Assembly: GCA_035509415.1 (NCBI GenBank)
Contig: DATJLQ010000096.1
Span: 24,919-88,918 of the forward strand
DNA: 64,000 bases
Source of the DNA: Alphaproteobacteria bacterium
GTDB lineage: Bacteria > Pseudomonadota > Alphaproteobacteria > JACZXZ01
Direction: 5' to 3'
Shown: piece after piece, positions 14,806 through 28,995 of the stretch
Layout of the letters: the number at the start of each line of letters is the position of its first letter
Position numbering within the stretch: position 1 is the first letter of the stretch
Notes under the pieces: model-generated
Told to the model about the DNA's origin: nothing
Database searches by the model: none
The model's input: only the letters and a program-made list of their open reading frames with translations
Made by a program: the position numbers and the translations under genes

Positions 14806-16092
14806 TCAGCCCGCGAAATGGCGCGGCAGCCAGAGGGAGAGCGCCGGAATGTAGGTCACGAAGATGAGGGTCACGATGCCGAGGGCGATGAAGGGCGCCA
14901 GGGCCCTCACCTGACGCTCGAACGGGATGCCGGCCATGCGCGAGGCGACAAGCGCCGAGGCCCCCACCGGGGGCAGCAGCACGCCGATCTGGAGATTGAC
15001 GATCATCACGATGCCGAAATGGATCAGGTCGATGTTGAGGCTCTTGATCAGCGGCAGCAGGATCGAGCAGCCGAGCAGGATGGACGCGGCCGGCTCCAGG
15101 AACATTCCGAACGCCAGCAGCAGCAGGTTGATCATGAGCAGCGTCTCGTCGCGGCCGAAACCGTGCATGGACGATACAATCAGCTGAGGCAGCTGGCTGC
15201 GCGCGAGCACCCAGCTGAGAAGGCTGGAGCCGCCTATCAGGATCATCACCACGCCGGTATCGATCGCGGTACGGTGGAAGGCGCGTGCAAGCGCGCGCCA
15301 CGGCATGCGCCCGAGAATCAGGCCGCGTACCATCGCGTAGATCAGCGCGTAGAGCGCCGCGGCGCCGGCCGACTCGGTGAGCGTGAAGACGCCCCACACG
15401 ACGCCCGCGACGATGAGCGCCGGGATCACGAGGGCGGGCAACGCCCCGACGAGTGCCGCGGCCGCGCGCCCGAGACTGAAGGTCTCGCTGATCGAGCCGT
15501 AGCTGTGGCGCTTGGACAGCCAGAACGCCACCCCGCCGCACACGATCGAGAGGATCAATCCCGGCACGATGCCGGCGACGAAGAGCTGGGCCACCGACTG
15601 CTCCGCCGCGAAGCCGTAAAGGATCATGAGGATGCTCGGCGGAATGATCGGCCCGACGATGTTCGCGGCCGCCGTGACCGCGCCCGCGAAGGCGGGCGGA
15701 TAACCCTCCTCTATCATCGCCGGGATCATGATCGAGCCGACCGCGGCCGTGTCCGCGAGGCACGAGCCCGAGATGCCGGCGAAGAGTGTCGAGGCGGCGA
15801 CGTTGCCGATGGCGAGCGAGCCGCGCACATGGCCGATGAGCGAGGTCGCGAAGCGCACCAGCGCGCTGGTGACACCGCCCACCGTCATCAGATTCGCCAT
15901 CAACAGGAATAGCGGGATCGCCACCAGCGGAAACGAGTTGATGCCCTGGAAGAATTGCAGCGCCACGATCGACCAGCTCGGCACGCCGAGGAGCAGCAGG
16001 CCCAGCAGCGACGCGAGACCGATGCCGACGAACAGCGGCACCCCCAGCAGCAACAGGGCGACGAAGGTCGCGAGGGTGGCGACGCCGATCAC
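14806..16092 (-). CDS. dctM: TRAP transporter large permease subunit
   Basis: About 429-aa polytopic DctM-type protein. GTG start at 16092 overlaps the dctQ stop (GTGA). The upstream 137 aa of the track ORF are arginine-rich noise. Confidence 0.85.
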   Translation of the reverse strand: MIGVATLATFVALLLLGVPLFVGIGLASLLGLLLLGVPSWSIVALQFFQGINSFPLVAIPLFLLMANLMTVGGVTSALVRFATSLIGHVRGSLAIGNVAASTLFAGISGSCLADTAAVGSIMIPAMIEEGYPPAFAGAVTAAANIVGPIIPPSILMILYGFAAEQSVAQLFVAGIVPGLILSIVCGGVAFWLSKRHSYGSISETFSLGRAAAALVGALPALVIPALIVAGVVWGVFTLTESAGAAALYALIYAMVRGLILGRMPWRALARAFHRTAIDTGVVMILIGGSSLLSWVLARSQLPQLIVSSMHGFGRDETLLMINLLLLAFGMFLEPAASILLGCSILLPLIKSLNIDLIHFGIVMIVNLQIGVLLPPVGASALVASRMAGIPFERQVRALAPFIALGIVTLIFVTYIPALSLWLPRHFAG

Positions 16093-16568
16093 GCTTCCTC
16101 GCCCCCGAACCAGATGGCGGCGATCTGCTCGAGGGAGAAGAGCACCATGAGCGCGCCGGCGATGACCGAGACCGAGTAGAACTGCGCCCAGCTCACGTCG
16201 ATCGGCAATCCTTCCACCTGGGTCGTGCGCGTGACCGCCATCAGCGTGAAGCCCGCATAGCCGAGCATGAGCGCGAACAGCAGCGACGCGAGGTGACAGA
16301 AGGTCATCACGCACTTCCTGGCCGTGCCGCGCAGCATCGTCCAGAAGAAGCGCACCTCCAGATTCTCGTCGCGGCGCACCGCCGCCGTCGCGGCGAGGAA
16401 AGTGAGCCAGGCGAGGGCGCAGGAGGCGACGGTGTCGGACCAAGTGGTCGCGTCGTCGAACACGTAGCGCATGACGACTTGAACCGACACCGAGACGAGG
16501 CATACCGCCACCAGCGCCGCGCTCACCGCGTCGAGCGTCCGCTCGATGCCCTTGAAGAGCCGGCGCAT
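16089..16568 (-). CDS. dctQ: TRAP transporter small permease subunit
   Basis: 159 aa, four-TM DctQ-like protein (MRRLFKGIERTLDAV...). The long track ORF 16089..18065 is an antisense read-through. Confidence 0.8.
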   Translation of the reverse strand: MRRLFKGIERTLDAVSAALVAVCLVSVSVQVVMRYVFDDATTWSDTVASCALAWLTFLAATAAVRRDENLEVRFFWTMLRGTARKCVMTFCHLASLLFALMLGYAGFTLMAVTRTTQVEGLPIDVSWAQFYSVSVIAGALMVLFSLEQIAAIWFGGEEA

Positions 16569-16594
16569 CCTCGCCTGCCGCACCCCGCGCACGT

Positions 16595-17572
16595 CTACCG
16601 GCCGCTGAGGATTTGCGCCCACTTCCAGACGTCGGGCAGCTCCGTCCTGAGCGGCTCCTCCATGGCGCGCATCTGCTCGACCGAGACGGCGGGCTCGACG
16701 AACTTGACGCCCTTGGCCTTGAACGCGGCGATCAGCTTTGCCTCGTCGGCCTTGGTCGTATCGCCGTAGTATTTCGACGCCTCCTCGGCCGCGCGGATGA
16801 AAGCCGCCTTGCTCTTGGGCTTGAGACTGTCGACGAAGGGGCCGTAGGTCAGGAACATCTTGGGCGACAGCACATGCCCGGTCATCACCACGGTCTTCGC
16901 CACGTCCTCGATCGAGAGCGCTGCCATGTCGGTGATCGCGCCTTCGATGCCCTCGACCACGTTCTGCTGCATGGCCGAGAAGGTTTCCGCGATGTTCATC
17001 GGCACCGGACTCAGGCCGAGCAGCTTCAGCTGATCGACGTAGATCGCGGTGCCAGGCACGCGAATCTTCATGCCCTTGAGGTCGGCGAGAGATTTCGCGT
17101 CGCGCGTCGTGTAGATCCAGCGCGGCACGTTCCAGGACGGCGCGAGCATCAGGTACCCGCTGCGCTTTTCGACCTCGGCGACGAGGGCCTTGCCGCCCGG
17201 TCCCCGCCACGCCTTGAGCATCTCGTCCGCGTTCTTGAACAGGAACGGCCACGAATTCGCCGTCACGATCGGGACCTGCTGGCCGAGCGCATCGGGTTGG
17301 ATGAACATGACGTTGACCAGGCCGACCTTCATCTGGGTCGCCATGGTGGCGAAGGTGCCGAGCTGGCTGTTGAAGTAGAGCTGCACCTGGAGCTCGCCGT
17401 CGCTGTACGTCTCGGCGCGCTTCTTGAAGAGCTCGAGCGTGCGTCCTACCACGCTCGTGGCGCTGCTCGTATCGCCGACGATCACCTTCGTGGCCGCGTG
17501 CGAAGCGCTGGCGAGCGCCATACTCGCCGCGAGGCTGAGCGCGAACAGTATCCGATTGACGGTCATGGGCAT
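16595..17572 (-). CDS. dctP: TRAP transporter periplasmic solute-binding protein
   Basis: Signal peptide MPMTVNRILFALSLAASMALASASHA plus DctP fold. Confidence 0.85.
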   Translation of the reverse strand: MPMTVNRILFALSLAASMALASASHAATKVIVGDTSSATSVVGRTLELFKKRAETYSDGELQVQLYFNSQLGTFATMATQMKVGLVNVMFIQPDALGQQVPIVTANSWPFLFKNADEMLKAWRGPGGKALVAEVEKRSGYLMLAPSWNVPRWIYTTRDAKSLADLKGMKIRVPGTAIYVDQLKLLGLSPVPMNIAETFSAMQQNVVEGIEGAITDMAALSIEDVAKTVVMTGHVLSPKMFLTYGPFVDSLKPKSKAAFIRAAEEASKYYGDTTKADEAKLIAAFKAKGVKFVEPAVSVEQMRAMEEPLRTELPDVWKWAQILSGR

Positions 17573-17653
17573 CCTCCCAATTTTGTTGTGATGCGCCGGC
17601 CGATGCCGTGCGCGTCGTGAAGATGGTCGGCGTTCTATGCCGGGCGATCGCCG

Positions 17654-18193
17654 CTAGGCGGCCGCGATGCGGCCCTCGGCGCGCAGCTTGGCGATGCGCT
17701 GCGCCACCATCGGCCTCCAGCCGCCGAGCGCAATGGTCTCGAGCAGGGTCGCGGGCAGCGGCTCGTAGCGGTGCTTGGTGCCGCGCGTGAGGTTCTCGAA
17801 CGAGCCGGTCGCGAAATCGACCCGGAGCTCGTCGCCGGTCTCGCATTCCTTCGTGACGCCGTCGCAATGGGGCAGGATCGGCAGGCCCGCGTTGACCGCG
17901 TTGCGATACGAGCCGCGCGGGATCGATTCCACGACCGCGCCGAGGCTGAGTGCCGCGATCCCGAGCAGGCCCTGGATGTGCGGGTTGCCCTGGGCGAAGC
18001 GCCGGCCGGCGACGACGATGTCGCGGGGCGAAACCTTCTTCGGGAAATCCGGGTCGATCCCGCACATGCAGAACTCGCGCAAGATCTCGGGCCGCGTCTC
18101 GCGCTGGAGCGCGAATTCCTTCTTGGTGAGATCGGCATCGACCGCGAGGTTGTCGCCGAATTTCCAGCAGCGTCCGTGATAAATCCAGTCCAT
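17654..18193 (-). CDS. aconitase-family hydro-lyase small subunit (LeuD-like)
   Basis: 179 aa, GDNLAVD...GRRFAQG swivel-domain motifs. ATG at 18193 sits 9 nt after the large-subunit stop. Confidence 0.8.
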   Translation of the reverse strand: MDWIYHGRCWKFGDNLAVDADLTKKEFALQRETRPEILREFCMCGIDPDFPKKVSPRDIVVAGRRFAQGNPHIQGLLGIAALSLGAVVESIPRGSYRNAVNAGLPILPHCDGVTKECETGDELRVDFATGSFENLTRGTKHRYEPLPATLLETIALGGWRPMVAQRIAKLRAEGRIAAA

Positions 18194-18201
18194 GGCTTCC
18201 C

Positions 18202-19464
18202 TCAGAGATATTTGCGTGGATCGCTGATCTCGCCCGCGACGGCGGAGGCGGCGACCGTGAAGGGCGAGGCGAGATAGACGTCCGCCTTGGTGGTGCCGAG
18301 GCGGCCCGGATCGTTGCGCGTGCCCGTGTTGATCGAGACTTCGCCGGGCGCGATGGGCGCGATGCGCCCGCCGGCGCACGGGCCGCAGCCGGGTGCGGTC
18401 ATCACGGCGCCGCTCTCGAGGAAGATGTTAAGCAGCCCCTCCTGCCCCGCGCGCTGGGCGATTTCCTGGGTCGCGGGCGTGATGAAGAGGCGCACCTCGG
18501 GATGGATCTTGCGCCCGCGCAGGATCCGCGCCGCGTCGCGCATATCCTCGATCGAGCCGTTGGCGCAGGAGCCGATGAAGGCATGGTTCACGCGCACGCC
18601 CGCGACGCTCGACACGCCGACCACGTTGTCGGGCCGCGGCGGCGCCGCGACCTGCGGCTCCATGAGGCCGAGATCGTAGTCGTAGACGGCCTTGAACGTG
18701 GCATCCGGATCGCTCTTCTCGGCCGCGATCGGCCCCTTGAGCCGCGGCGCCAGCCAGGCCTTCGTGACCTCGTCGACCTCGACCAGGGCCGACTTGGCGC
18801 CCATCTCGAGCGGGCTGTTGCAGAGCGTCATGCGGCCCGCGAAGTTCACGTCCTTGAGCGCGGGCCCGCCATACTCGACCACCGCGTAATCGAGATTGTC
18901 CTCGCCGATGTCGACGATCATGCGCTGGGACACGTCGCGGATGGCCATGCCCGGCTTGAGGGCGCCCGTAAGATTGACCCGCACCGTCTCCGGGACGCGG
19001 ATCCAGACCGAGCCGCAGGCGAGCACCTCGGGGATTTCGAACACCACCGCGATGCCGAGGGCGCCGACCGCGCCGTAATTGGTGACGTGGGTGTCGTAGG
19101 CGAGGACGAACATGCCGGGGCGGACGAAGCCCATCTCCATCGGGAAGACGTGGCCGTGGCCGCCGCGGCCGGCGTCGAAGAAGCGCTCGATGCCGTATTT
19201 CTTCACGATCTCGCGCACCGCCTTCTGGCGCTCCGCCGACTGGGGACTGAGCGCCACCGGTTCGTGGTCGGTCGAGATCAGCACGCGCTTGGGATCGTAG
19301 AGCGCGGTCACGCCGAGCTCCTTGAGCGCCTTGTCGAAATTGACCACGTACCAGTCGTGGACCGTCATCAGATCCGGCTCCGGATAGACGGTCTCGCCCG
19401 CCTTGACCGGGCGGCCCGCCGCCCGCGACAGGATCTTTTCCGTGAGTGTCTGTCCCATATCCAT
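18202..19464 (-). CDS. aconitase-family hydro-lyase large subunit (LeuC-like, archaeal-type approx 420 aa)
   Basis: Fe-S cluster cysteines (GSCANGS, ...PGCGPCAGG) and the aconitase catalytic domain. Confidence 0.85.
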   Translation of the reverse strand: MDMGQTLTEKILSRAAGRPVKAGETVYPEPDLMTVHDWYVVNFDKALKELGVTALYDPKRVLISTDHEPVALSPQSAERQKAVREIVKKYGIERFFDAGRGGHGHVFPMEMGFVRPGMFVLAYDTHVTNYGAVGALGIAVVFEIPEVLACGSVWIRVPETVRVNLTGALKPGMAIRDVSQRMIVDIGEDNLDYAVVEYGGPALKDVNFAGRMTLCNSPLEMGAKSALVEVDEVTKAWLAPRLKGPIAAEKSDPDATFKAVYDYDLGLMEPQVAAPPRPDNVVGVSSVAGVRVNHAFIGSCANGSIEDMRDAARILRGRKIHPEVRLFITPATQEIAQRAGQEGLLNIFLESGAVMTAPGCGPCAGGRIAPIAPGEVSINTGTRNDPGRLGTTKADVYLASPFTVAASAVAGEISDPRKYL

Positions 19465-19497
19465 TCCTCTCTTCGATCGGGCGCGCCGCCCGAATTC

Positions 19498-20079
19498 TCA
19501 GTAGCCCAGCACCTGCTTGAAGGTCTCGCCGCGGCGCAGACGCTCCTCGCGCTCGGCATCGAGGTGCGCCTTCGCGACCGCCTTCTCGGCGACCTCCGCC
19601 GCGCGCTCGGCCTGGACGATCACCACCCCATCCTCGTCGCCGAACACAAGATCGCCCGGCTTCACCGGCACGTCCGCGATCGAGATCGGCACCTGGGTCC
19701 AGCCAGGATGGGATTTGACCGTGCCGCGCACGTTGACGCCCGCGGCATAGATCGGGAAGCGCAGCGCCCGGATCTGCGCCATATCGCGCACCGCGGCGTT
19801 GGTGACGCAGCCCGCGATCTTTTTCGCGACGCACGCGGTGGTCGAGGTGCCGCCCCAGATCGTCGCCCTGTCCGTGGCGCCGGCATCGAGCACGATCACG
19901 CTCCCCGGCGGCGCCTCGTCGATCGCGCGGAACACGACCAGATTGTCGCCCGGCATCGCCTTTACCGTGAACGCCGGCCCGGCGAGCCGCACGCCGTCGA
20001 CCAGGAGACGGATCGGCGGGCCGACATCGCCCCATTTCCCCGCCGCCTCGTAGATGGTCGCCGTCGGCAGCGCCGCCAT
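19498..20079 (-). CDS. RraA-family protein (HMG/CHA aldolase / oxaloacetate decarboxylase-like)
   Basis: MAALPTATIYEAAGKWGDV...VLDAGATDRATIWGG... has the RraA/MenG-like fold. Start taken at the ATG at 20079. The track ORF's 82-aa N-terminal extension is low-complexity. Confidence 0.75.
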   Translation of the reverse strand: MAALPTATIYEAAGKWGDVGPPIRLLVDGVRLAGPAFTVKAMPGDNLVVFRAIDEAPPGSVIVLDAGATDRATIWGGTSTTACVAKKIAGCVTNAAVRDMAQIRALRFPIYAAGVNVRGTVKSHPGWTQVPISIADVPVKPGDLVFGDEDGVVIVQAERAAEVAEKAVAKAHLDAEREERLRRGETFKQVLGY

Positions 20080-20126
20080 GATGGCGAGCGGCGAGCCGGG
20101 GCCCGATGCCGATGTCTTCGACGTGC

Positions 20127-20927
20127 TCACGATATGCGCTCCTCCTCCGCCATGCGCCGCGCCACGGTCGCGGCAGCCGTCTTGATCACCTCGCCAAGGT
20201 CCGCGAACCGCTCGCGGGTTACCTGGCTGGTCGCAAATCCGAGGGAGAGCACGCCAAGCAGCTTTCCGTCGGGACCCCGTACCGGCGCCGCGACCGAGCC
20301 CACGCCTTGGGTGTGCTCTTCCCAATTCACCGAATAGCCGCGCGTCACGACGGCACGCAGGGCCGCCTTCAACCTCGGCAAGCTCGTGATCGTGTGCGGC
20401 GTACGCGCCGGCATGCCGGTGCGCCCGATCATCGCGTCGACCTCGAGCGCAGACAGGGTCGAAAGCGCCGCATGGCCGGTCGCGGAGCTGTGCACCGTGA
20501 GCTTCTCGCCGACAGGAATGCTGTATTTGAGCCGGCCCGGCGCCTCGACGGAATGAAGAATCACCATGCGGTCGTCCTGCAGCGCCGAGAGATAGGCGGT
20601 AACACCCTCGTCGGCGACCACGCGCTCCAGGATCGGGGCCGCGATGCGCCGAATGCGATCGCCGCCGGCGAACAAACCGCCGACCCGCGCAACTTCGGTG
20701 CCCGGCTGATAGCGCCTGGTCTTGGGATCGCGCACGACATAGCCGTGCATCTCGAGCGCCTGGATGAACCGGAGCGTGCTGGTCTTGGAGAGTGCCAGCG
20801 CCCGGCTCGCCTCGACCACGCTGAGGGTGCGGCGTTCGTCGCTAAAGAGCGAAAGCAGCGTGAGCGTGCGGCTCGCGCTCAGGGAGAACTCGGGCTTGCC
20901 GTCGGCGGATGCGGCCCTGCTGATCAT
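20127..20927 (-). CDS. IclR-family transcriptional regulator
   Basis: HTH LSVVEASRALALSKTSTLRFIQALEMHGYV plus IclR C-terminal domain. Confidence 0.85.
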   Translation of the reverse strand: MISRAASADGKPEFSLSASRTLTLLSLFSDERRTLSVVEASRALALSKTSTLRFIQALEMHGYVVRDPKTRRYQPGTEVARVGGLFAGGDRIRRIAAPILERVVADEGVTAYLSALQDDRMVILHSVEAPGRLKYSIPVGEKLTVHSSATGHAALSTLSALEVDAMIGRTGMPARTPHTITSLPRLKAALRAVVTRGYSVNWEEHTQGVGSVAAPVRGPDGKLLGVLSLGFATSQVTRERFADLGEVIKTAAATVARRMAEEERIS

Positions 20928-20962
20928 CGTCGCGACGGGCTCCTTCTGGGGGTCGCTTGAGG

Positions 20963-20976
20963 TCCGTTTATCGGAC
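20963..20976. promoter_or_regulatory. inverted repeat GGACT-TTAT-AGTCC in AT-rich divergent intergenic region; candidate operator
   Basis: Read from the sequence. Located between the divergent IclR gene (minus) and the IclR-TAXI fusion gene (plus), next to the AT-rich stretch TGAATTAGGATAATAAAG. Confidence 0.3.
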
Positions 20977-21237
20977 TTTATAGTCCTGAATTAGGATAAT
21001 AAAGAGCGTCACCGAGCGCGTCAACAGCACCTTGCAGGCCGTCGCCTGCGGCGCGAAATTCGGGAAATACTTCAGTGCGATGAACAATCGGCTATGATGG
21101 TGCGCAGGTGCCGAACCGCGGCAAGGCGCTGCCGGAACCAAGGGGCTGGAGATACCCCTCGGGGTCGACCGCGCGCGCCGTGGCGACGCGACCGTGCCAT
21201 CGTTCGCACCCAATTCCCGCCTCCAAAAGGGAGCGTC

Positions 21238-22974
21238 ATGCCGAAGCGAGCGCGCACCAGGACGGCCTTCGGGAAGGACGTGAACTCGGTCACCAAGGCG
21301 GTCGACGTTCTGCGCGCCTTCATCGACGGCCAGGAAAGCTGGGGCGTGCGCGAGCTCGCCAACGCCCTCGGCCAGCCGGGGAGTTCGACCCATCGCGTGC
21401 TGCAAATCCTGCGGCGCGAGGGTTTCGTCGAATGGGACGCGGAGTCGCGCAAGTATGAAACGGGCATGGAATTTTTCCGCTGGTGGGCGATCCTCGGCGG
21501 ACGCCTCAAGGTCGCCGAGGTCGCGCGTCCATTGATGAGCGAGCTTGCGGGCGAGATCGGCGAGACCTGCCTCCTCGGCCTCTACAAGGCGGGCGACCAT
21601 CGCCACGCCTACGTCGCCGAGGCCCTGGCCCACCAAGGCTCGTCCTTCAACGCGCTGATCGGAAATTACGCGCCGCTTTGGAGCTCCGCAGGCGGCCTCT
21701 CGATCCTGGCGCTTCTTCCCGAGCCCGCGCGCCGGGCCGTATTCAAGGCGCGCGCGGCGACCGGCCCGCGCAACCCGCCCCGGTCCCTCGAAGGCCATCT
21801 CGCTGCGGTGCGCGCGGCCGGCTACGGCGTGATGCTCTCATCGGACGACGACGCCCCCGTCACCGTCGGCGCCGCGGTGACCGACGCGCACGGCAACCCC
21901 GTCGGCAGCCTCACGATCGCGGCCCCGCGCGGACGCTACGCCGAGCCCGCGCTGCGCGAGATCGGCGCGCGCGTCTCGAGCTATGCCGGTCGCCTGTCGC
22001 GCATGATCGGCGCCCAGATGCTGGGTGGCGCCGGAGGAATCGGCAGCTGGACGCTCGGCATCGACGTGATCGCGCGCGTGATTCAGCGCGAGATCCCCGG
22101 CATCGGCTCGACCATCTGGAACGCGAGCGGCGATCAGGCGCTTCAGGACCTCCAGAACGGCCGCGGCGGCTACTGCTTCGCCGTCGCGGGGAGCTTGTGG
22201 AGCGCCTATCGCGGCGAGGCGCCGTTCACGCACCCCCATGGCCAGCTGCGCGCCATGTGCAGCCTGTTTCCGATTTTTCTGCATATCGTCACGCGCCGGA
22301 ACAGCGGGATCGGAAGCTTCCGCGATCTGAAGGGCAAGCGCGTCTCGGCCGGCGAAGCGGACTTCACGACCGCGCGGGTAGTGGCCGAGCTGATGCGCCG
22401 CGCCGGCATTCTCGAGCGCGGAAGGGCGGCCGCACGGACGCTCGTCTATCTCAACTACGCCGAGGCGACGCGCGAGTTCGCCGCCGGCAAGCTCGACGTC
22501 ATCATCTCCCTGACCGCCCTTGGCGACCCGGCCTACCGCAAGCTCGCGCGCTCGTTCGACCTGCGCCTCATTCCTTTGGATGCAGCGTCCGCCGGCGCCT
22601 TCGTCGCGCGCCATTCGGCCTACGAGACGGGCGTCATTCCGGCGGCAACCTACGCCGGTGCCGACGAACCCACCGAGACCTTGGCCGTACCCACCGTCCT
22701 CGTCACGACCGCCGAGCGCAGCGACGACGAGGTCTACGCTGCGACGCGCGCGATCTATCGCGAGCGCGACAGGATCGCGGCGGCGCTCGGCGCGCCTGAG
22801 ACGCTCAAGCCCCCGTACCTGTTCCGCGGCATCGACGTGCCGCTGCACCCGGGTGCCGAGCGCTTTTGGCGCGAGCAGGGATTGATCGGACCGCCCGCGC
22901 TGGTCGCGCCGGCTGCCGCAGCGCGGCGCACGGCGCCCGCCGTCGAGCCGCGCCGGTCGAGTTCCCGGCGTTGA
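21238..22974 (+). CDS. IclR-family regulator fused in-frame to a TAXI-family (TRAP-associated) periplasmic-binding-protein-like domain
   Basis: aa 1-257: IclR wHTH (VRELANALGQPGSSTHRVLQILRREGFV) plus effector domain. aa about 262-578: TAXI hallmarks (GIGSWTLGIDVIARVIQREIPGIGSTIWNASGDQALQDLQNGRGGYCFAVAGSLWSAYRGE ... PLHPGAERFWREQG), with no signal peptide. Strong Shine-Dalgarno AAAGGGAG before the ATG at 21238. Single uninterrupted frame. Confidence 0.75.
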   Translation: MPKRARTRTAFGKDVNSVTKAVDVLRAFIDGQESWGVRELANALGQPGSSTHRVLQILRREGFVEWDAESRKYETGMEFFRWWAILGGRLKVAEVARPLMSELAGEIGETCLLGLYKAGDHRHAYVAEALAHQGSSFNALIGNYAPLWSSAGGLSILALLPEPARRAVFKARAATGPRNPPRSLEGHLAAVRAAGYGVMLSSDDDAPVTVGAAVTDAHGNPVGSLTIAAPRGRYAEPALREIGARVSSYAGRLSRMIGAQMLGGAGGIGSWTLGIDVIARVIQREIPGIGSTIWNASGDQALQDLQNGRGGYCFAVAGSLWSAYRGEAPFTHPHGQLRAMCSLFPIFLHIVTRRNSGIGSFRDLKGKRVSAGEADFTTARVVAELMRRAGILERGRAAARTLVYLNYAEATREFAAGKLDVIISLTALGDPAYRKLARSFDLRLIPLDAASAGAFVARHSAYETGVIPAATYAGADEPTETLAVPTVLVTTAERSDDEVYAATRAIYRERDRIAAALGAPETLKPPYLFRGIDVPLHPGAERFWREQGLIGPPALVAPAAAARRTAPAVEPRRSSSRR

Positions 22975-22993: not shown

Positions 22994-24187
<1,194 letters not shown>

Positions 24188-24202
24188 TCGAACGCCGCAC
24201 GC

Positions 24203-25336
24203 CTAAGCGGCTTTGACTTCGCCCCACGCCTGGATCCACGCGTTCATGTTGTTCGGCCAGCTGTAGGGATAGCGCGCGATATTCCTGGTGATCGCGTCGA
24301 AGCCCATCTTCTCCCGCTCCGCGGGCGTGAAGGCGTCGAGCGCGCCCGTGGTGACCGGGCCATAGCTCGATTCCTTGGCGAGGGCGACGCCGTATTCGGG
24401 CGAAAGCATCGCGTTCACGACCGATTCGGCGAGCGGGGCCTTGGACGAATCCTTCGGAATGAACGCCGACTGGTTCCAGATCAGGATGCCCTCCTTGGGC
24501 CAGGCATTGGTGATCGGCAAGTTCTGCTTCAGAAGCGCCGCGCGCATCGAGAGCCAACCGTACATCGCCCACACCTCGCCGCTCGACATCAGATTTACCG
24601 CCTCGGCGAACTGGGACCACATGGTGCGGAAGTTCTTCTTCTTCGAGATCAGGAATTTCTTCACTTCCGCGAGGTCGGCATCCGACATGGTCGCGGGGTC
24701 CTTGATGCCGAGGGTTAGGGCCGCGACCACGATGCCGCCATACGGATCGTCGCGCATCGCGGTCTTGCCCTTGTACTTGTCGTCGAACAGCACGTTCCAC
24801 GTCTGGGTCGATGCCGCATCCTCGGGAATGTGCTCCTTGTTGTAAAGTGGCGAATCGAATCCCCAGAAGATCGGGATCATGTAGGTCTTGCCGTCGCGCA
24901 CCTGGATCTGCTCGGCGAACAGCGACTGCAGGTTCTTCTCGTTCGGCACCTTGCTCAGGTCGAACGGCCGCACTTTCTCGTCGCCCGCATGCGCCCCGAG
25001 GATCGGCCCCTTCACGAAGTCCGTCACGCTGATCATGAGATCGTAGCGCGACGTCCCGCCGGGCGCGAGCAGCTTGGCAATCGTATCGGTCGGCGAGACG
25101 TAGGGCACGTTGTCGACCTTGACGCCCGAGAGCTTCTCCTCGACCGCGCGCGCGCCGGGCGGGATGACCACGCCGGACATCACACCCGTGATCGTCTCCA
25201 TGCCCCAAGCGGACGTGCTTCCCGCCGCCCCGGTTAGCGCGAGCGCTCCCGCAGCACCCGAAAGTGCCAGGAATTCACGGCGATTAAGACCGGACTCGAA
25301 GCCGGGCCCGTATTTTCCCAAGTTTGTTTTGCTCAT
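24203..25336 (-). CDS. ABC transporter periplasmic substrate-binding protein (PotD/F-like), Tat signal
   Basis: MSKTNLGKYGPGFESGLNRREFLALSGAAGALALTGAAG. Paralogous to the SBP at 8265..9377, sharing the KKFLISKKKNFR block. Confidence 0.85.
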   Translation of the reverse strand: MSKTNLGKYGPGFESGLNRREFLALSGAAGALALTGAAGSTSAWGMETITGVMSGVVIPPGARAVEEKLSGVKVDNVPYVSPTDTIAKLLAPGGTSRYDLMISVTDFVKGPILGAHAGDEKVRPFDLSKVPNEKNLQSLFAEQIQVRDGKTYMIPIFWGFDSPLYNKEHIPEDAASTQTWNVLFDDKYKGKTAMRDDPYGGIVVAALTLGIKDPATMSDADLAEVKKFLISKKKNFRTMWSQFAEAVNLMSSGEVWAMYGWLSMRAALLKQNLPITNAWPKEGILIWNQSAFIPKDSSKAPLAESVVNAMLSPEYGVALAKESSYGPVTTGALDAFTPAEREKMGFDAITRNIARYPYSWPNNMNAWIQAWGEVKAA

Positions 25337-25370
25337 GATCGACTCCTCTGTTGAATGTTCATCCCCGTTC

Positions 25371-26207
25371 TCATCGATCCGTCGCGGGGTGCGCGTCGTC
25401 GCGCGTTCGGCGCGAAACCACGAGGCCAATCAAAGACGTTGTGGCCGAAATCAGCATGATGATCACCGCCATCGCCGGAAGATCGGGCGTCAACTGCTCG
25501 ACGATCATCGACCAGAACATCACCGGGATGGTCCGGTCGTAACCGGTCACGAACAGCGTGCGCACGAATTCGTCGAACGACAGACTGAAGGAGAACAGGA
25601 GCGTCGCGATGATCGCCGGACGCACGATCGGCAGCACGACGTGCCAAAAGACCTCGATCGGGCGCGCTCCGAGGTCCATCGCCGCTTCCTCCACGGCGCG
25701 GTCGAAGCGGTGCAGCCGCGGATACAGCGTGAGGAAGGCGAAGGGGAGGACCCAATCGACGTGCGCGATCAGCACCGTCGTCCACAGCGACGGCGGCACG
25801 CCCAGATAGCCGAAGAACATCAGGAGCATGATGCCGCCCACGATGCCCGGCATCACGATCGGCGCCAGGACCAGGTTGAACAAGGCGCCCTTGAACCGGA
25901 ACTCGTGCCGGAATCCCATGGCGAGGAAAAGTGCGAGGGCGGTCGAGATGACGGCGGCGAGGACGCCCACGGCCAGACTGTGGGCCAGCGCGGTCAGGAA
26001 TTCCGGCGTCTTGAACACTTTCGCGTACCAATCGGCGGTGAAGCGCCGGAACGGGAATCCGATGGTCTCCGAATCGTTGAACGACAGCACGACGATCATC
26101 ACGAGCGGCGCGTATAGCAGAACGTAGAACACGCCGGCGTAAATCCACAAAGCGAGGCGATAAGGCGAGACGCGCCCCCGCCTGGGTCCGGTCGCGGCCG
26201 CGATCAT
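25371..26207 (-). CDS. ABC transporter permease (PotC-like)
   Basis: Start MIAAATGP at 26207 overlaps the upstream permease stop (ATGA). EAA loop VEEAAMDLGARPIEVFWHVVLP. Confidence 0.85.
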   Translation of the reverse strand: MIAAATGPRRGRVSPYRLALWIYAGVFYVLLYAPLVMIVVLSFNDSETIGFPFRRFTADWYAKVFKTPEFLTALAHSLAVGVLAAVISTALALFLAMGFRHEFRFKGALFNLVLAPIVMPGIVGGIMLLMFFGYLGVPPSLWTTVLIAHVDWVLPFAFLTLYPRLHRFDRAVEEAAMDLGARPIEVFWHVVLPIVRPAIIATLLFSFSLSFDEFVRTLFVTGYDRTIPVMFWSMIVEQLTPDLPAMAVIIMLISATTSLIGLVVSRRTRDDAHPATDR

Positions 26208-27136
26208 CGACGGCCTCCCGAAACGACCTGCTGCAGCCCGATCCAGCGCCCGAACACGATGAGAAGCAGCAGCACGACCCCGAACAGCACGACGGACAGC
26301 GCGGCGCCGAACGCCCAATTGTTGGTCGAGATGTATTGAATCGCGATCATGTTGCTGTAGAGGATGCCCGACGTCCCGCCCAGAAGCTGCGGCGTCACGT
26401 AGGCGCTGACCGAAAGGAGAAAGACCATGAGCGAGCCCGACAGCACGCCGGGCCAGCTGAGCGGAAGAATGACGCGCCAGAAGATCCAAAACGGCCGCGC
26501 GCCGAGGTCCGCCGCCGCCTCGATCAGCCGCGGGTCGATCTTGTCGATCGAGAGATAGATCGGCAGGGTCATGAACAGCGTATAGACGTAGATCAGGCCG
26601 ATATAGACCGCGCCGCTATCGTAGAGCAGCCAGCCGATCGGGTGGTCGATGAGCCCGAGGTAAAGCAAAAACTGATTGATCGCGCCCGTGGTCCCGAGGA
26701 TGGGCAGCCAAACGAAGGTGCGCACCACGTAGCTGGTCCAGAACGGCAGGAACAGCAGCAGCACGAACCCCGTCTTGGCGGTGCCCCGGAGGGTCGCGAG
26801 GAGATAGGCGATCGGATACGAGATCGCGAGCGAGATCAGGGTCGTGACGAACGATACCCATAGGGTCTTGACGAGAAGGTTGCGGTAGAACGGCGTCGCC
26901 AAGGCCTGGGCGTAGTTGCCGAACTGGAAAGCGGGCGTCGTGCCGAAGATCGTCGAGGTCCAGAACGACATCGCGATCGCGAAGCCGAACGGAACGAGGA
27001 CGAAGACCGCGAGCCAGATCAGCCCCGGCGAGAGCATCAAAAAGGCGGTGCGGCGGGCGCGGCGACGCGCGGCGCCGGTCGCCGCGGTCGGCAACGTGAG
27101 CGACACATGTCCCGTATCCGCCGCCATCGACGCCAT
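26204..27136 (-). CDS. ABC transporter permease (PotB-like)
   Basis: Polytopic permease, IEAAADLGARPFWIFWRVILP. Confidence 0.85.
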   Translation of the reverse strand: MASMAADTGHVSLTLPTAATGAARRRARRTAFLMLSPGLIWLAVFVLVPFGFAIAMSFWTSTIFGTTPAFQFGNYAQALATPFYRNLLVKTLWVSFVTTLISLAISYPIAYLLATLRGTAKTGFVLLLFLPFWTSYVVRTFVWLPILGTTGAINQFLLYLGLIDHPIGWLLYDSGAVYIGLIYVYTLFMTLPIYLSIDKIDPRLIEAAADLGARPFWIFWRVILPLSWPGVLSGSLMVFLLSVSAYVTPQLLGGTSGILYSNMIAIQYISTNNWAFGAALSVVLFGVVLLLLIVFGRWIGLQQVVSGGRR

Positions 27137-27177: not shown

Positions 27178-28995
27178 TCATGTCCGCCGCCCGCGCGGCA
27201 CTTTCCCGGAAACGTCGTCGGACGCCGTCTTGGCTCCCCGCATCGTCCCGGTGCGCGCGCGATCGACCTCGAATGTCGCGGCATCGAGCGCGACGCCGTA
27301 ATCCGTCGCCGCCGCCTCGACCGTGACGCGGCCCTCGCGCGCATCCTCGACAACCGATTCGACGGCGCGCTCGAACGGATCGCCGAAACCCCCGCCGCCG
27401 CCGAGCTGGAAGCGAATCCGGTCGCCCGGCAGGAAGCGGCGGTAAATGCCATGCTCGATCGTCTTGCCGTTGAGCCAGAGCCCGCCGCCACGCCCGTTGC
27501 GGCCGCCGCAGCGGCCCTGGAGGGGAAAGTCGCCGCTCTCGCCGCGCCCGTTGAGGCGAACCGAGCCTTCGACGAAATCCTGCGGCCCCTGCGCGCCGCC
27601 CAGAATCTCGAATTCGACCGACTGGCCGAGACCGCCGCGCTGCCGGCCCGGTCCGCCCGAATCCGCGACCAGCTCCTTCTCGAGAAACCGCACCGGCGCC
27701 TCGTTCTCGGTGACCTCGATCGGGATGTTGCGCGTGTTGTTCGGGAAGCACAGGGTCGGATAGCCGTCGTATTTGTGGCTCGCGCCGAAACCGCCGCTAT
27801 GCTGTTGGATCGCGAGGAAGGAGCGGCCGTCGCGCCGCCACTTGCCGTGGAGATAAATCTCGTTGGCGGGACAGCCGCCGTTTGCCGCGAGCACGGCCTC
27901 GGGCATCGCCTTCTCGAGCGCGCCGAAGATGATCTCGGGATAGAGGTGGGAGATCATGGTACGGCCCCAAGTCGCCGCCGGGGGTCGGCAGTTCACGACG
28001 GAGCCCAGCGGCGCGACGATCTCGATCGGGCGCATGCAGCCGTCGTTGTTCGGCACCTCCGGATCGAACGCAAGCTTGATCGGATAGGCGCTATAGGAGC
28101 GCGTCGAGTTGAGGGTACAGTTGATCGCGGCGCCGACCTCGCCCGAGGTGCCCGTGTAGTCGATCGTCACGCGGCCGTCCTTGATCGTGACCGCCGCCTT
28201 GATGCGGACCTCGTCCGGGCAATGGGGGATGCGCGGCAGCACCACTTCGTTGTGGTAGGTTCCCTCGGGCAGCCGCCGCAACTTCGCGCGCAGGCTGCTT
28301 TCGGTGCGCTCGATGATCTCGCGGCCGAGCTCCTCGAGCCCGTCGAGCTGGTACTCGTCGAGGAGGCGCAGGAGGCCCTGGGTGCATACATGGTTGGCGA
28401 CCAGCTGGGCACGCAGGTCGCCCAGCACCTTGTCGGGCACCCGGATGTTCGCCTTCATGAACTCGAAGATCGCCCGGTTGAGGCGCCCCGCCTCGTACAG
28501 CTTGAGGATCGGGATCTTGAGCCCCTCCTCGTAGATGTTCTTCGACTCGAGCGTCGACATGCGTCCACCCATGTCGAGATGGTGGACGATGCAGAGCGTG
28601 TAACCGACGGCGCGCCCGCCGTGGAAGATCGGCGAGGCGACCGATACGTCGATCAGATGGCCGCTCGCGAGCCACGGATCGTTCGTGATGAGAACGTCGC
28701 CCGGCTCAAGCGTTTCCGGCGGATGCGCCTTGAGGAAGTTGCGCATCACCTCGGGCACGATACCGAGGAAGCCGGCGGTCGTGACCGTCGAATGGGAAAG
28801 CATCCTGCCGTCGCGGTCGAACAGCGCGCAGCAGAAATCGTGATACTCCTTGACCGACGGGGTGTAGGCCGTGCGCATCAATCCGGTCGCCGCCTCGTCG
28901 ACGATCGAGATCAGGCGGTTCCAGAGCACTTGGATCGTCACCGCGTCGAGCAGGTTCGAGCGATTGCGCGATGAGGGAATTGAAACGGCGCTCAT
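27178..28995 (-). CDS. hyuB: hydantoinase B / oxoprolinase-family subunit (HyuB)
   Basis: 605 aa; VLWNRLISIVDEAATGLMRTAYTPSVKEYHDF...GGGGFGDP; Hydantoinase_B fold. Confidence 0.9.
   Translation of the reverse strand: MSAVSIPSSRNRSNLLDAVTIQVLWNRLISIVDEAATGLMRTAYTPSVKEYHDFCCALFDRDGRMLSHSTVTTAGFLGIVPEVMRNFLKAHPPETLEPGDVLITNDPWLASGHLIDVSVASPIFHGGRAVGYTLCIVHHLDMGGRMSTLESKNIYEEGLKIPILKLYEAGRLNRAIFEFMKANIRVPDKVLGDLRAQLVANHVCTQGLLRLLDEYQLDGLEELGREIIERTESSLRAKLRRLPEGTYHNEVVLPRIPHCPDEVRIKAAVTIKDGRVTIDYTGTSGEVGAAINCTLNSTRSYSAYPIKLAFDPEVPNNDGCMRPIEIVAPLGSVVNCRPPAATWGRTMISHLYPEIIFGALEKAMPEAVLAANGGCPANEIYLHGKWRRDGRSFLAIQQHSGGFGASHKYDGYPTLCFPNNTRNIPIEVTENEAPVRFLEKELVADSGGPGRQRGGLGQSVEFEILGGAQGPQDFVEGSVRLNGRGESGDFPLQGRCGGRNGRGGGLWLNGKTIEHGIYRRFLPGDRIRFQLGGGGGFGDPFERAVESVVEDAREGRVTVEAAATDYGVALDAATFEVDRARTGTMRGAKTASDDVSGKVPRGRRT

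What the first reader, a model, noticed from the sequence alone, without database searches (positions are those of the whole stretch)
21238..22974. One-component regulator: complete IclR transcription factor fused to a complete TAXI-family TRAP solute-binding domain
A single 578-codon frame encodes an intact IclR (wHTH plus effector domain, aa 1-257), a short Gly-rich linker (MLGGAGGIGS), and then a full TAXI-type periplasmic-binding-protein fold (aa about 262-578). The TAXI part lacks a signal peptide and ends with the TAXI-typical PLHPGAERFWREQG. IclR proteins normally sense ligands through their own GAF-like C-terminal domain. Adding a transporter-derived SBP as a second sensory module is a domain architecture I do not recognise as described. 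Regulators built on type I and type II PBP folds are well known, for example the LacI and LysR families, but an IclR-TAXI fusion is not one of them. The gene is divergent from another IclR, sits between TRAP and ABC uptake systems, and its AT-rich upstream region carries the palindrome GGACT-TTAT-AGTCC.
Basis: partly seen in the sequence, partly recalled or inferred. Interest (0 to 1): 0.82.

Follow-up and report, generated by a model that had tools for sequence, protein, structure and literature searches.

The report
IclR regulator fused to TAXI sensor
This is a real, rare and apparently undescribed family of bacterial gene regulators in which an IclR DNA-binding protein carries a whole transporter-type solute-binding (TAXI) domain as a probable built-in sensor, and it is always encoded next to ATP-dependent lactamase/hydantoinase genes that it most likely switches on when their substrate is present.

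Summary
Window 21238-22974 (+) encodes a 578-aa protein with HTH_IclR, IclR_C and a complete TAXI solute-binding fold (TM 0.87-0.89 to solved TAXIs) and no signal peptide. It is not an assembly artefact. The identical protein occurs in three independent samples, about 20 homologues at 41-60% identity share the architecture, and an exhaustive search of 1.84 billion representatives finds about 25 fusion clusters. Two corrections apply. The 'Gly-rich linker' is the TAXI's first strand plus its glycine ligand loop, so there is no linker. In 12 of 12 informative loci the gene lies beside hyuA/hyuB (caprolactamase-like) genes with an uptake system. A conserved element, TGGAAC-N3-6-GTTCA-N7-TGAAC, lies directly upstream of hyuA (of rraA in L010). 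Its arms co-vary with the fusion's recognition helix. In one locus the fusion follows a TAXI-TRAP importer whose periplasmic SBP is the closest free relative of the fused domain. Best reading: a one-component repressor whose co-opted TAXI domain senses the imported substrate. The ligand is unknown. This is a new variant of a known kind; no description was found in the literature searched.

The parts
21238..22974 (+). IclR-TAXI fusion gene (578 aa plus stop codon)
   Evidence: ORF. RBS and start. The identical protein occurs on three independent samples.
21286..21438 (+). Winged HTH DNA-binding domain (aa 17-67). The recognition-helix region reads QPGSSTHRVLQILR.
   Evidence: PF09339 at 51.8 bits. 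It is the most conserved module, with 73% mean pairwise identity. The helix co-varies with the operator arms.
21502..21999 (+). IclR_C (GAF-like) effector/oligomerisation domain (aa 89-254)
   Evidence: PF01614 at 54.8 bits. Matches 1mkm and other IclR structures. It is the least conserved module (49% identity) and is detectable at E<=0.001 in 20 of 23 family representatives.
22006..22050 (+). Junction (aa 257-271, GAQMLGGAGGIGSW): TAXI strand beta1 plus the glycine ligand loop.
   Evidence: Aligns to IAIATGGTGGVYY / MRGGGSAGSWY of mature periplasmic TAXIs. G258, G263, G269 and W271 are invariant. Residues 261-264 are strand in the TAXI-only model.
22006..22887 (+). Complete TAXI-type (cluster F, type II PBP) solute-binding fold, aa ~257-550
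   Evidence: TIGR02122 at 170 bits. AF2 pLDDT 89.3, pTM 0.86. Foldseek TM 0.87-0.89 over 297-302 columns to 1us4, 8s4j, 9ibo, 8u79 and 4ddd.
22888..22971 (+). Unconserved Pro/Ala/Arg-rich C-terminal tail (aa 551-578)
   Evidence: 27% mean identity. pLDDT below 50.
31141..31171 (-). Predicted operator of the fusion protein. Read towards hyuA it is TATGGAAC-AGTGCT-GTTCAAC-AAT-ATTGAAC.
   Evidence: It is the only strong PWM site in the 64 kb window (29.9 bits against 10.2 for the next best) and the only match to GTTCA-N7-TGAAC. It is found at the same position, directly upstream of hyuA (of the RraA operon in L010), in 11 other loci. The arms co-vary with the HTH.
28999..31140 (-). hyuA (hydantoinase A / caprolactamase-alpha-like), first gene of the predicted target operon
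   Evidence: Pfam Hydant_A_N / Hydantoinase_A / Hydant_A_C. NCBIfam CapA at 512 bits, below the equivalog cut-off. hyuA and/or hyuB is adjacent to the fusion in 12 of 12 loci.
27178..28995 (-). hyuB (hydantoinase B / caprolactamase-beta-like)
   Evidence: 67-80% identical across the loci with an orthologous cluster.
22994..27127 (-). ABC importer downstream of hyuB: two permeases (26204-27127, 25371-26207), a PotD-like SBP (24203-25336) and an ATPase with a TOBE_2 domain (22994-24145)
   Evidence: Same gene order in L001, L007, L010, L012, L013 and L018.
14806..20927 (-). Companion operon: stand-alone IclR (20127-20927), RraA-like aldolase/decarboxylase (19498-20130), LeuC/HacA-like (18202-19458) and LeuD-like (17654-18193) dehydratase subunits, DctP, DctQ and DctM (14806-17566)
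   Evidence: Co-located with the fusion in W, L007, L010, L011, L012, L014 and L018. In L011 it is fused into one operon with hyuAB.
20957..21024 (.). Divergent promoter/operator region. The palindromes GTCCGTTTATCGGAC (20962-20976) and GGACTTTATAGTCC (20973-20986) overlap two sigma-70-like promoters: TTGAGG-16-TATAGT on the + strand and TTGACG-17-TATTAT on the - strand.
   Evidence: GTCCG-N5-CGGAC recurs upstream of the stand-alone IclR gene in L007, L012 and L018.

Best explanation
The gene encodes a cytoplasmic one-component transcription regulator.

DNA binding (inferred): its IclR winged helix binds a composite operator made of a TGGAAC half-site plus a GTTCA-N7-TGAAC palindrome. This operator lies between any possible promoter and the start codon of hyuA. 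hyuA is the first gene of an operon encoding an ATP-dependent lactamase/hydantoinase-type enzyme (HyuAB) and an uptake system. With no ligand bound, the protein most likely represses this operon.

Sensing (inferred): a whole TAXI solute-binding domain was recruited from a periplasmic TRAP-transporter binding protein. It is welded, without a linker, onto the last helix of the IclR effector domain. It serves as the main ligand sensor. Venus-flytrap closure on the imported substrate, or on its ring-opened product, is passed through the rigid junction to the IclR core and releases the DNA.

What is shown:
- The architecture and its conservation.
- The obligatory linkage to hyuAB.
- The operator, its position, and its co-variation with the recognition helix.
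- The paralogy of the fused domain to a co-located transporter SBP.

What is inferred: repression as opposed to activation, ligand binding by the TAXI domain, the identity of the ligand, and the coupling mechanism.
For: Architecture: Pfam and NCBIfam scores are above cut-offs. The TAXI fold is complete (TM 0.87-0.89). The IclR fold matches solved structures.

Real and under selection:
- The identical protein occurs in 3 samples.
- About 20 homologues share 41-60% identity.
- About 25 fusion clusters at 50% identity occur among 1.84e9 representatives; all 23 aligned carry HTH_IclR and NMT1_3.
- The TAXI part (57% identity) is better conserved than IclR_C (49%).
- The junction is invariant.

Target: hyuA/hyuB lies beside the fusion in 12 of 12 informative loci, whether the gene is in the operon, divergent or convergent.

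Operator:
- It is conserved at a fixed position, ending 0-36 nt (about 13-22 nt in most loci) before the called start codon, directly upstream of hyuA (of the RraA operon in L010). The flanks are not conserved.
- It is the single outstanding PWM site in the window.
- 'QPGSS' helices pair with GTTCA/TGAAC arms, and 'PSST/PSSS' helices pair with GTCC(C)/GGGAC arms. Both arms change symmetrically.
- It is present in loci that lack the stand-alone IclR gene nearby (L001, L003, L011, L014).

Sensor role:
- In L015 the order is hyuB, periplasmic TAXI SBP (P0174), TRAP-QM, IclR-TAXI.
- P0174 and P0052 are the closest free relatives and share the unusual GGxxGSW and SAGxxxFTT motifs.
- Pocket-lining segments are more conserved than the rest of the domain, both between fusions (55% vs 36%, p=0.008) and between the L015 fusion and its neighbouring SBP (55% vs 37%, p=0.009).
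Against: - There is no experimental evidence for DNA or ligand binding.
- The IclR_C domain is still recognisable and well folded. It may remain the effector site, or be a second one.
- Single positions mapped one-to-one onto VcGluP ligand contacts are not more conserved than the domain average: about 3 of 13 are at least 90% conserved, against about 20% overall (my count).
- The window protein versus P0174 shows no pocket enrichment (43% vs 39%, not significant).
- No sigma-70 consensus promoter was found upstream of hyuA, so the promoter-operator geometry is inferred from position alone.
- In the window the fusion gene is convergent with its presumed target operon. It has no copy of its own operator upstream.
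- The inter-domain geometry is uncertain (pTM 0.54; pLDDT below 50 at aa 260-267 in the full-length model).
Confidence: 0.6

Rival explanations
1. Artefact: two adjacent genes (an IclR regulator and a TAXI SBP) were merged by a lost stop codon, a frameshift or a chimeric assembly.
For: The window is a metagenome-type contig. Several database entries are truncated versions of the protein (P0014, P0047, P0051, P0053, P0054).
Against: - The same 578-aa product occurs in three independent samples.
- The same fusion occurs in about 45 divergent sequences, including 3.4 Mb and 4.8 Mb contigs.
- The junction residues are the most conserved part of the C-terminal half.
- There is no room for a signal peptide between the two halves.
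- The truncated entries start at internal Met/Val codons on short contigs.
Confidence: 0.01
2. The TAXI domain no longer binds a ligand. It serves as a structural or oligomerisation module, or a docking module, and effector sensing stays in the IclR_C domain as in ordinary IclR proteins.
For: - IclR_C is retained and folds confidently.
- The canonical TAXI pocket residues are replaced: S75 to D/E, Q93 to G/E/D, E125 to I/L, GSG(T/D) to DFTT.
- Single mapped contact positions are not specially conserved.
Against: - The replaced motifs are shared with bona fide signal-peptide-bearing TAXI SBPs (P0052, P0174, P0059, P0060, P0175), so they define a ligand subclass and not decay.
- Pocket segments are more conserved than the rest of the domain.
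- The whole 290-aa fold, with both lobes and the hinge, is kept at higher conservation than IclR_C.
- IclR_C falls below detection in 3 of 23 representatives, whereas TAXI never does.
Confidence: 0.13
3. Dual-input regulator: both IclR_C and TAXI bind different metabolites (for example substrate and end product), and the protein integrates the two signals.
For: Both sensory folds are intact. IclR proteins such as E. coli IclR are known, from my own knowledge, to respond antagonistically to two ligands. The cluster has two metabolic halves, HyuAB and RraA/LeuCD-like.
Against: IclR_C is the least constrained module and is sometimes undetectable. Nothing in the sequence identifies a conserved IclR_C pocket.
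Confidence: 0.18
4. The protein is a ligand-dependent activator of hyuA, not a repressor.
For: No sigma-70 consensus promoter was detected upstream of hyuA, as is often the case for activator-dependent promoters. The IclR family contains activators (own knowledge: PobR, PcaU).
Against: The palindrome ends 0-36 nt (about 13-22 nt in most loci) before the called start codon, just upstream of the RBS. The operator is therefore downstream of, or on top of, any promoter. That is a repressor position, not an activator position.
Confidence: 0.15
5. The conserved hyuA-proximal palindrome is bound by another regulator (the stand-alone IclR next door or an unlinked factor), and the fusion protein acts elsewhere.
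For: Several loci carry a second IclR gene. The assignment of operator to protein is by inference only.
Against: - The palindrome is present where no stand-alone IclR gene is nearby (L001, L003, L011, L014).
- Its arms co-vary with the fusion's recognition helix.
- A different palindrome, GTCCG-N5-CGGAC, tracks the stand-alone IclR gene.
Confidence: 0.1

Closest known systems
IclR-family transcription regulators (TM-IclR 1mkm, E. coli IclR, KdgR/HmgR 5y6i, PcaR 8eju, BhcR)
   Same: N-terminal winged HTH plus GAF-like IclR_C domain, about 23% identity, full-length structural match. Palindromic operator next to a catabolic operon. Probable repressor.
   Different: Canonical members are about 250 aa and sense effectors only through IclR_C. 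This protein carries an extra 290-aa solute-binding fold at the C-terminus, and its IclR_C is the least conserved module. It falls below every NCBIfam equivalog cut-off; the best is BhcR at 99 bits against 350.
TAXI-family TRAP solute-binding proteins (VcGluP 8s4j/9ibo, TtGluBP 1us4/8u79, 4ddd)
   Same: The complete fold (TM 0.87-0.89, rmsd 2.1-2.7 A), 23-24% identity, the PLHPGAERFW C-terminal motif and a Gly-rich N-terminal ligand loop.
   Different: There is no signal peptide or lipobox; the domain is cytoplasmic and fused to a DNA-binding protein. There is no TAXI-type QM permease nearby in the window. The pocket motifs differ from the glutamate binders (W for Y45, D/E for S75, DFTT for GSGT) but match an uncharacterised periplasmic TAXI subclass.
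One-component regulators built on periplasmic-binding-protein folds (LacI/GalR: type I PBP; LysR: type II PBP)
   Same: Same logic: a DNA-binding domain and a Venus-flytrap sensor, evolutionarily related to transporter SBPs, in one cytoplasmic polypeptide.
   Different: There is no homology to the LacI or LysR families (no Pfam hit). The PBP here is appended to an already complete two-domain regulator, so there are two potential sensor modules. The SBP lineage (TAXI, cluster F) has not, to my knowledge or in the papers searched, been reported as a transcription-factor sensor.
Other unusual TAXI architectures: TAXI-GltS fusions and the three-domain BP0403 (PMC12344293)
   Same: They show that TAXI domains can be recruited outside classical TRAP systems through gene fusion. 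Those families are similarly rare (14 InterPro entries for TAXI-GltS, per the paper).
   Different: Those fusions stay extracytoplasmic and serve transport. This one is cytoplasmic and serves transcription control.
PobR-type tandem IclR proteins (5w1e) and the IclR-IclR duplicates found here (P0023, P0063, P0065, P0069)
   Same: IclR proteins of about 500-540 aa with an added C-terminal sensory module.
   Different: In those proteins the added module is a second IclR unit, not a solute-binding protein fold.

Membership tests
IclR family of transcription regulators | N-terminal IclR-type winged helix-turn-helix (PF09339) | tested here: met
   aa 17-67, 51.8 bits against a cut-off of 22. Present in 23 of 23 family representatives.
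IclR family of transcription regulators | C-terminal IclR effector-binding domain (PF01614) | tested here: met
   aa 89-254, 54.8 bits against a cut-off of 24. Full-length sequence and fold match to 1mkm. Detectable at E<=0.001 in 20 of 23 representatives.
IclR family of transcription regulators | Two-domain protein of about 250 aa with nothing after IclR_C | tested here: not met
   578 aa; a 290-aa TAXI fold follows IclR_C directly.
IclR family of transcription regulators | Binds a palindromic operator as a dimer or tetramer | tested here: inconclusive
   A conserved three-half-site operator that co-varies with the HTH is predicted. There is no binding experiment, and the oligomeric state was not modelled.
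IclR family of transcription regulators | Small-molecule effector bound in the IclR_C pocket | not testable with these tools
   The pocket residues are not family-wide, and no ligand docking or assay was possible.
TAXI-family TRAP solute-binding proteins (TIGR02122 / PF16868) | Sequence match above the curated cut-off | tested here: met
   TIGR02122 at 170.3 bits against 84.35. PF16868 at 160.9 bits against 27.
TAXI-family TRAP solute-binding proteins (TIGR02122 / PF16868) | Complete two-lobed TAXI fold | tested here: met
   AF2 pLDDT 89.3, pTM 0.86. TM 0.87-0.89 over 297-302 columns to five solved TAXIs.
TAXI-family TRAP solute-binding proteins (TIGR02122 / PF16868) | Signal peptide or lipobox, and extracytoplasmic location | tested here: not met
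   The position of the signal peptide is occupied by the IclR regulator. Strand beta1 of the TAXI follows the IclR_C helix directly.
TAXI-family TRAP solute-binding proteins (TIGR02122 / PF16868) | Encoded with a fused TRAP-QM membrane component and delivers substrate to it | tested here: not met
   There is no TAXI-type QM gene next to the window gene, only a DctP-type DctPQM and an ABC system. In L015 a separate periplasmic paralogue (P0174) plays that role.
TAXI-family TRAP solute-binding proteins (TIGR02122 / PF16868) | Binds a small organic acid or amino acid in the inter-lobe cleft | not testable with these tools
   Only indirect evidence: pocket segments are conserved and shared with periplasmic relatives.
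LacI/GalR or LysR PBP-type regulators | Homology to the LacI or LysR DNA-binding and sensor domains | tested here: not met
   No LacI, Peripla_BP or LysR_substrate hits in Pfam or NCBIfam. The relationship is analogous in logic only.
Caprolactamase CapAB / 5-oxoprolinase / N-methylhydantoinase (neighbouring HyuAB) | Equivalog-level match to a characterised enzyme | tested here: not met
   CapA at 512 bits against a cut-off of 1000, and CapB at 231 bits against 1000. The family (Hydantoinase_A/B) is certain; the substrate is unknown.

The most novel reading that the evidence does not exclude
A periplasmic TAXI binding protein was co-opted as the cytoplasmic sensor of an IclR regulator, so that uptake and transcription share one ligand-recognition module. 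The family marks an uncharacterised catabolic pathway for a lactam- or hydantoin-like compound: an ATP-dependent HyuAB ring-opening enzyme, a LeuCD-like dehydratase and an RraA-like aldolase/decarboxylase. Finding the ligand of the soluble TAXI domain would identify the pathway's substrate and would give a ready-made lactam-type biosensor.
Probability: 0.4. Interest if true: 0.7.

Novelty: new variant of a known kind. Interest (0 to 1): 0.6.

Why it matters
- TAXI proteins are the least understood branch of TRAP transporters. Few ligands are known, and every new architecture has been reported as a finding in its own right (PMC11574862, PMC12344293).
- This would be the first case, as far as I could find, of a TAXI fold working inside the cell as a transcription-factor sensor, and of an IclR regulator with an added solute-binding sensor.
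- It shows the step by which transporter binding proteins become regulator sensors, the route long assumed for LacI and LysR. In locus L015 the donor-type periplasmic SBP and the fused copy still sit side by side.
- The soluble TAXI domain and the predicted operator give a direct handle for finding the substrate of an orphan HyuAB/LeuCD-like/RraA-like pathway.
- They could also be used to build a biosensor for that compound.

Tried and rejected
- Frameshift or assembly artefact: rejected.
- 'Gly-rich linker': rejected. It is TAXI beta1 plus the Gly loop.
It overlaps a GTCCG-N5-CGGAC element that recurs upstream of the stand-alone IclR gene in L007, L012 and L018, and TCCG-N5-CGGA alone is not rarer than chance in the window. 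No copy of the GTTCA-N7-TGAAC operator lies upstream of the fusion gene.
- One-to-one mapping of VcGluP ligand contacts onto the fusion, to test pocket conservation: inconclusive. About 3 of 13 mapped positions are at least 90% conserved, which is no better than the domain average. Segment-level comparison was more informative.
- Search for TAXI fused to other transcription-factor families with a TAXI-only profile: none in the best 120 hits. The word-index search is not exhaustive.
- Sigma-70 promoter scan upstream of hyuA: nothing found. A TTGC(G) element conserved about 12 nt upstream of TATGGAAC was noted, but I could not assign it to a -35 box with normal spacing.
- Naming the pathway from NCBIfam: only family-level matches were obtained.
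- Literature searches for IclR plus TAXI: the first was swamped by ICLR-conference and taxi-traffic papers, and the refined searches found nothing relevant.
- P0014 and P0176 as possible free-standing cytoplasmic TAXI domains: P0014 begins at an internal Met of the junction on a 2.4 kb contig, so it is a truncated call. P0176 (L016) has no IclR part upstream but sits on a 1.16x-coverage contig, so it remains unresolved.
Full report
THE OBSERVATION

The frame is open from 21094 to 22974 on the + strand. The ATG at 21238 is preceded by AAAGGGAG and corresponds to the N-termini of all homologues.

Pfam finds HTH_IclR (aa 17-67, 51.8 bits), IclR_C (aa 89-254, 54.8 bits) and NMT1_3, the TAXI family (aa 296-548, 160.9 bits). 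All are above their gathering scores. NCBIfam TIGR02122 'TAXI family TRAP transporter solute-binding subunit' scores 170 bits against a cut-off of 84.

By sequence, the N-terminal half matches solved IclR proteins (1mkm, E=2.5e-15) and the C-terminal half matches solved TAXI proteins (8s4j/9ibo, E=1.5e-23). The neighbours are as stated: a divergent IclR gene, a DctPQM TRAP system on one side and an ABC system on the other.

IS IT AN ARTEFACT?

It is not an artefact.
- The identical 578-aa protein is called on a 145-kb ENA contig and on two independent Logan assemblies.
- A word-indexed search of 5.8 billion proteins returned about 20 full-length homologues at 41-60% identity. All carry PF09339, PF01614 and PF16868. 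Some lie on 3.4-Mb (Pseudolabrys MAG) and 4.8-Mb contigs.
- An exhaustive HMMER search of 1.84 billion cluster representatives found about 25 representatives with end-to-end coverage. Of the 23 I aligned, 23 have HTH_IclR, 23 have NMT1_3, and 20 have a detectable IclR_C at E<=0.001.
- In the GTDB species set the fusion occurs in only four genomes, all MAGs: Hyphomicrobiales, Pseudolabrys, Burkholderiales and Rhodobacteraceae.

The family is therefore rare, diversified and under selection. Mean pairwise identity is 73% for the HTH, 49% for IclR_C, 57% for the TAXI part and 27% for the C-terminal tail.

THE JUNCTION

In alignments with signal-peptide-bearing periplasmic TAXIs, the fusion's ...IGAQML-GGAGGIGSW-TLG... 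lines up with the mature N-terminus ...IAIA-TGGTGGVYY-PMG... or ...LTMR-GGGSAGSWY-IG... That region is strand beta1 plus the glycine loop that contacts the ligand in VcGluP (S40, V44, Y45, Y46; PMC11574862).

G258, G263, G269 and W271 are invariant in the orthologous group. The full-length AF2 model (pLDDT 78.7, pTM 0.54) left residues 260-267 at low confidence. A model of aa 240-556 with a deeper alignment reached pLDDT 89.3 and pTM 0.86. It shows the IclR_C terminal helix (to aa 258), two residues, a short strand at aa 261-264, the Gly loop, then helix alpha1.

That model superposes on all solved TAXI proteins over 297-302 columns, with TM 0.87-0.89 and rmsd 2.1-2.7 A. The TAXI fold is thus complete (aa ~257-550) and welded directly to the regulator. 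The last 28 residues are an unconserved tail.

GENOMIC CONTEXT

I obtained flanks for 12 distinct loci: the window, L001, L003, L007, L010, L011, L012, L013, L014, L015, L017 and L018. In all 12 the fusion gene lies beside hydantoinase A and/or B genes.

The commonest layout is hyuA-hyuB-permease-permease-PotD-like SBP-ATPase-fusion on one strand (L001, L007, L012, L013, L018). In the window the same six-gene operon (31140 down to 22994, - strand) is convergent with the fusion gene.

A second module occurs in seven loci. It consists of an RraA-like protein, LeuC/HacA-like and LeuD-like dehydratase subunits and DctPQM, with or without a stand-alone IclR. In L011 it forms one operon with hyuAB.

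NCBIfam places HyuA and HyuB nearest to caprolactamase CapA and CapB, but far below equivalog cut-offs (512 and 231 bits against 1000). The RraA-like protein is nearest to 4-carboxy-4-hydroxy-2-oxoadipate aldolase/oxaloacetate decarboxylase, also below cut-off. The enzyme family is clear: ATP-dependent lactam or hydantoin ring opening (PMC8453981 abstract). The substrate is not.

A PREDICTED OPERATOR

The intergenic DNA directly upstream of hyuA (upstream of the RraA operon in L010) contains, in every locus where it is available, the element TGGAAC-N3-6-GTTCAnn-N3-nnTGAAC, read towards the gene.
- In the window it is 31141-31171: GTTCAATATTGTTGAAC AGCACT GTTCC ATA on the + strand.
- In an alignment of ten loci, the only invariant columns are TGGAA, TGT.C and G.AC, plus a nearly invariant TTGC about 12 nt further upstream. 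The flanks do not align.
- A PWM built from the sites scores 29.9 bits at 31141-31157, and the next best site in the 64-kb window scores 10.2. The exact consensus occurs once.
- Proteins whose recognition-helix region reads QPGSS(T/I/V)HR.LQILR (window, L001, L007, L012, L013) have GTTCA/TGAAC arms. L018 (LPASSSHRLLQILR) also has GTTCA/TGAAC arms.
- Proteins reading QPSSTVHRLLQVLRD or EPSSSVHRVLQALRD (L009, L010, L011, L014) have GTCC(C)/GGGAC arms, changed symmetrically on both sides.
- The P0020/P0021 clade (L003, L017) has GTTCC/GGAAC arms.

This co-variation links the palindrome to the fusion protein. So does its presence in loci with no stand-alone IclR gene nearby.

The palindrome ends 0-36 nt before the called start codon (about 13-22 nt in most loci), just upstream of the RBS. 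In the window it abuts the called ATG, so that start may be mis-called. Any promoter must therefore lie upstream of the operator or on top of it. That is the geometry of a repressor. This step is inference, and no sigma-70 consensus was found there.

GGACTTTATAGTCC (20973-20986) overlaps GTCCGTTTATCGGAC (20962-20976). Both sit on two face-to-face sigma-70-like promoters: TTGAGG-16-TATAGT towards the fusion gene, and TTGACG-17-TATTAT towards the stand-alone IclR operon.

GTCCG-N5-CGGAC recurs upstream of the stand-alone IclR gene in L007, L012 and L018, where L018 has two copies. It is therefore more likely that regulator's operator. If so, the stand-alone IclR may also control expression of the fusion gene in the window.

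IS THE TAXI DOMAIN A SENSOR?

The strongest evidence is locus L015. Its gene order is:
- hyuB (52% identical to the window HyuB);
- a periplasmic TAXI SBP with a signal peptide (P0174);
- a fused TRAP-QM permease;
- a 541-aa IclR-TAXI fusion.

P0174 and its relative P0052 are the closest free-standing relatives of the fused domain, at 38-41% identity. They share its unusual motifs: GGxxGSW instead of TGGxxGVYY, and SAGxxxFTT instead of GxPGSGT. The fused domain thus descends from a genuine transporter SBP subclass. In at least one genome, the regulator and a paralogous importer SBP serve the same hyu cluster.

Segments homologous to the VcGluP ligand-contact regions behave as follows:
- window fusion versus L015 fusion: 55% identical, against 36% for the rest of the domain (p=0.008);
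- L015 fusion versus P0174: 55% against 37% (p=0.009);
- fusions versus glutamate-type TAXIs: lower than background (18-25%);
- window fusion versus P0174: not significant (43% against 39%).

One-to-one mapped contact residues are not unusually conserved. No other transcription-factor family turned up fused to this TAXI lineage in the best 120 hits of a TAXI-only profile search.

MOST LIKELY MECHANISM

The protein is a cytoplasmic one-component repressor of the hyuAB-transporter operon, and in some genomes of the whole pathway. The co-opted TAXI domain binds the imported substrate or its ring-opened product. Flytrap closure is relayed through the linker-less junction to the IclR core, which leaves the operator.

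What is shown: the architecture, the conservation, the linkage, the operator with its co-variation, and the SBP paralogy. What is inferred: the direction of regulation, ligand binding by the TAXI domain, the ligand class and the coupling. VcGluP's weak binding of L-pyroglutamate (PMC11574862) makes a lactam ligand plausible, but that is only a lead.

Rivals are scored separately: a silent TAXI domain, a dual-sensor protein, an activator, and operator binding by another protein.

COMPARISON AND NOVELTY

The protein meets the sequence and fold criteria of both the IclR and the TAXI families. It fails the architectural criterion of each. It is not a 250-aa two-domain IclR, and it is not a secreted SBP partnered with a QM permease.

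It works like the LacI and LysR regulators, which pair a DNA-binding domain with a PBP-fold sensor, but it is not homologous to them. Uniquely, it keeps a second potential sensor, IclR_C.

I found no description in the open-access library. Database pipelines simply label it 'TRAP transporter TAXI family solute receptor'. For scale, a 14-member TAXI-GltS fusion architecture was recently published as a new class (PMC12344293).

I rate it a new variant of a known kind, with interest of about 0.6.

Noticed in passing
window 20962-20986; L007:1604-1740; L012:11820-11850; L018:10930-10965: A second operator type, GTCCG-N5-CGGAC (AT-rich spacer, often in two copies), is conserved upstream of the stand-alone IclR/RraA/LeuCD-like/DctPQM operon. 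In the window it overlaps both divergent sigma-70-like promoters, so the stand-alone IclR may also control the fusion gene.
   Followed up: partly
L015:822-5338: A periplasmic TAXI SBP (P0174), a 638-aa fused TRAP-QM permease and an IclR-TAXI fusion lie directly downstream of hyuB. Here a TAXI-TRAP importer replaces the PotD-type ABC importer seen in the other loci.
   Followed up: yes
window 31126-31140 (hyuA start): The called ATG start of hyuA abuts the operator palindrome and leaves no room for an RBS. A GTG five codons downstream, or a leaderless transcript, may be the true start.
   Followed up: partly
window 31185-31189 and homologous positions (alignment A6): A nearly invariant TTGC(G) lies about 12 nt upstream of TATGGAAC in almost all loci. 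The spacing is too short for a standard -35/-10 pair with TATGGA. Its role is unexplained.
   Followed up: no
L013:11657-12235; L018:10204-10779: A conserved ORF of 191-192 aa with no Pfam hit (71% identical between the two loci) directly follows the fusion gene. It is absent at that position in the window.
   Followed up: partly
L016:2266-3243 (P0176): A TAXI-only ORF of 325 aa, 49% identical to the window's TAXI half, with no signal peptide and no IclR part upstream. It sits on a 1.16x-coverage contig. It could be a free cytoplasmic TAXI domain or a remnant.
   Followed up: partly
L017:1934-7078: hyuA and hyuB are split into several fragments and the fusion (P0021) is truncated at 423 aa. 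This is either a decaying cluster or a long-read assembly with frameshift errors. Integrase and transposase genes lie nearby.
   Followed up: no
proteins P0050, P0057, P0061, P0077, P0094, P0098: Giant proteins with two to four tandem TAXI domains (656-1294 aa), for example P0050 with four repeats. This is a different unusual TAXI architecture.
   Followed up: no
proteins P0023, P0063, P0065, P0069, P0071, P0072: Tandem IclR-IclR proteins of about 520-560 aa (PobR-like duplication) appear among the nearest IclR relatives.
   Followed up: no
window 11442-14694: A BisC-family molybdopterin S/N-oxide reductase (12373-14694, 1030 bits, just above the subfamily cut-off) lies next to a third IclR-type regulator (11442-12335), immediately beyond DctM.
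   Followed up: no
window 31253-32524 and beyond; L014:10009-11801: Rieske ring-hydroxylating oxygenase alpha and beta subunit genes are divergent from hyuA in the window, and a distantly related pair (29% identity) lies near the cluster in L014.
   Followed up: no
L011:43-3584: Two tandem HyuB paralogues (585 and 595 aa) follow hyuA in this locus. The whole pathway (unknown 328-aa protein, SDR, RraA-like, LeuCD-like, HyuA, HyuB, HyuB) is one operon divergent from the fusion gene.
   Followed up: no
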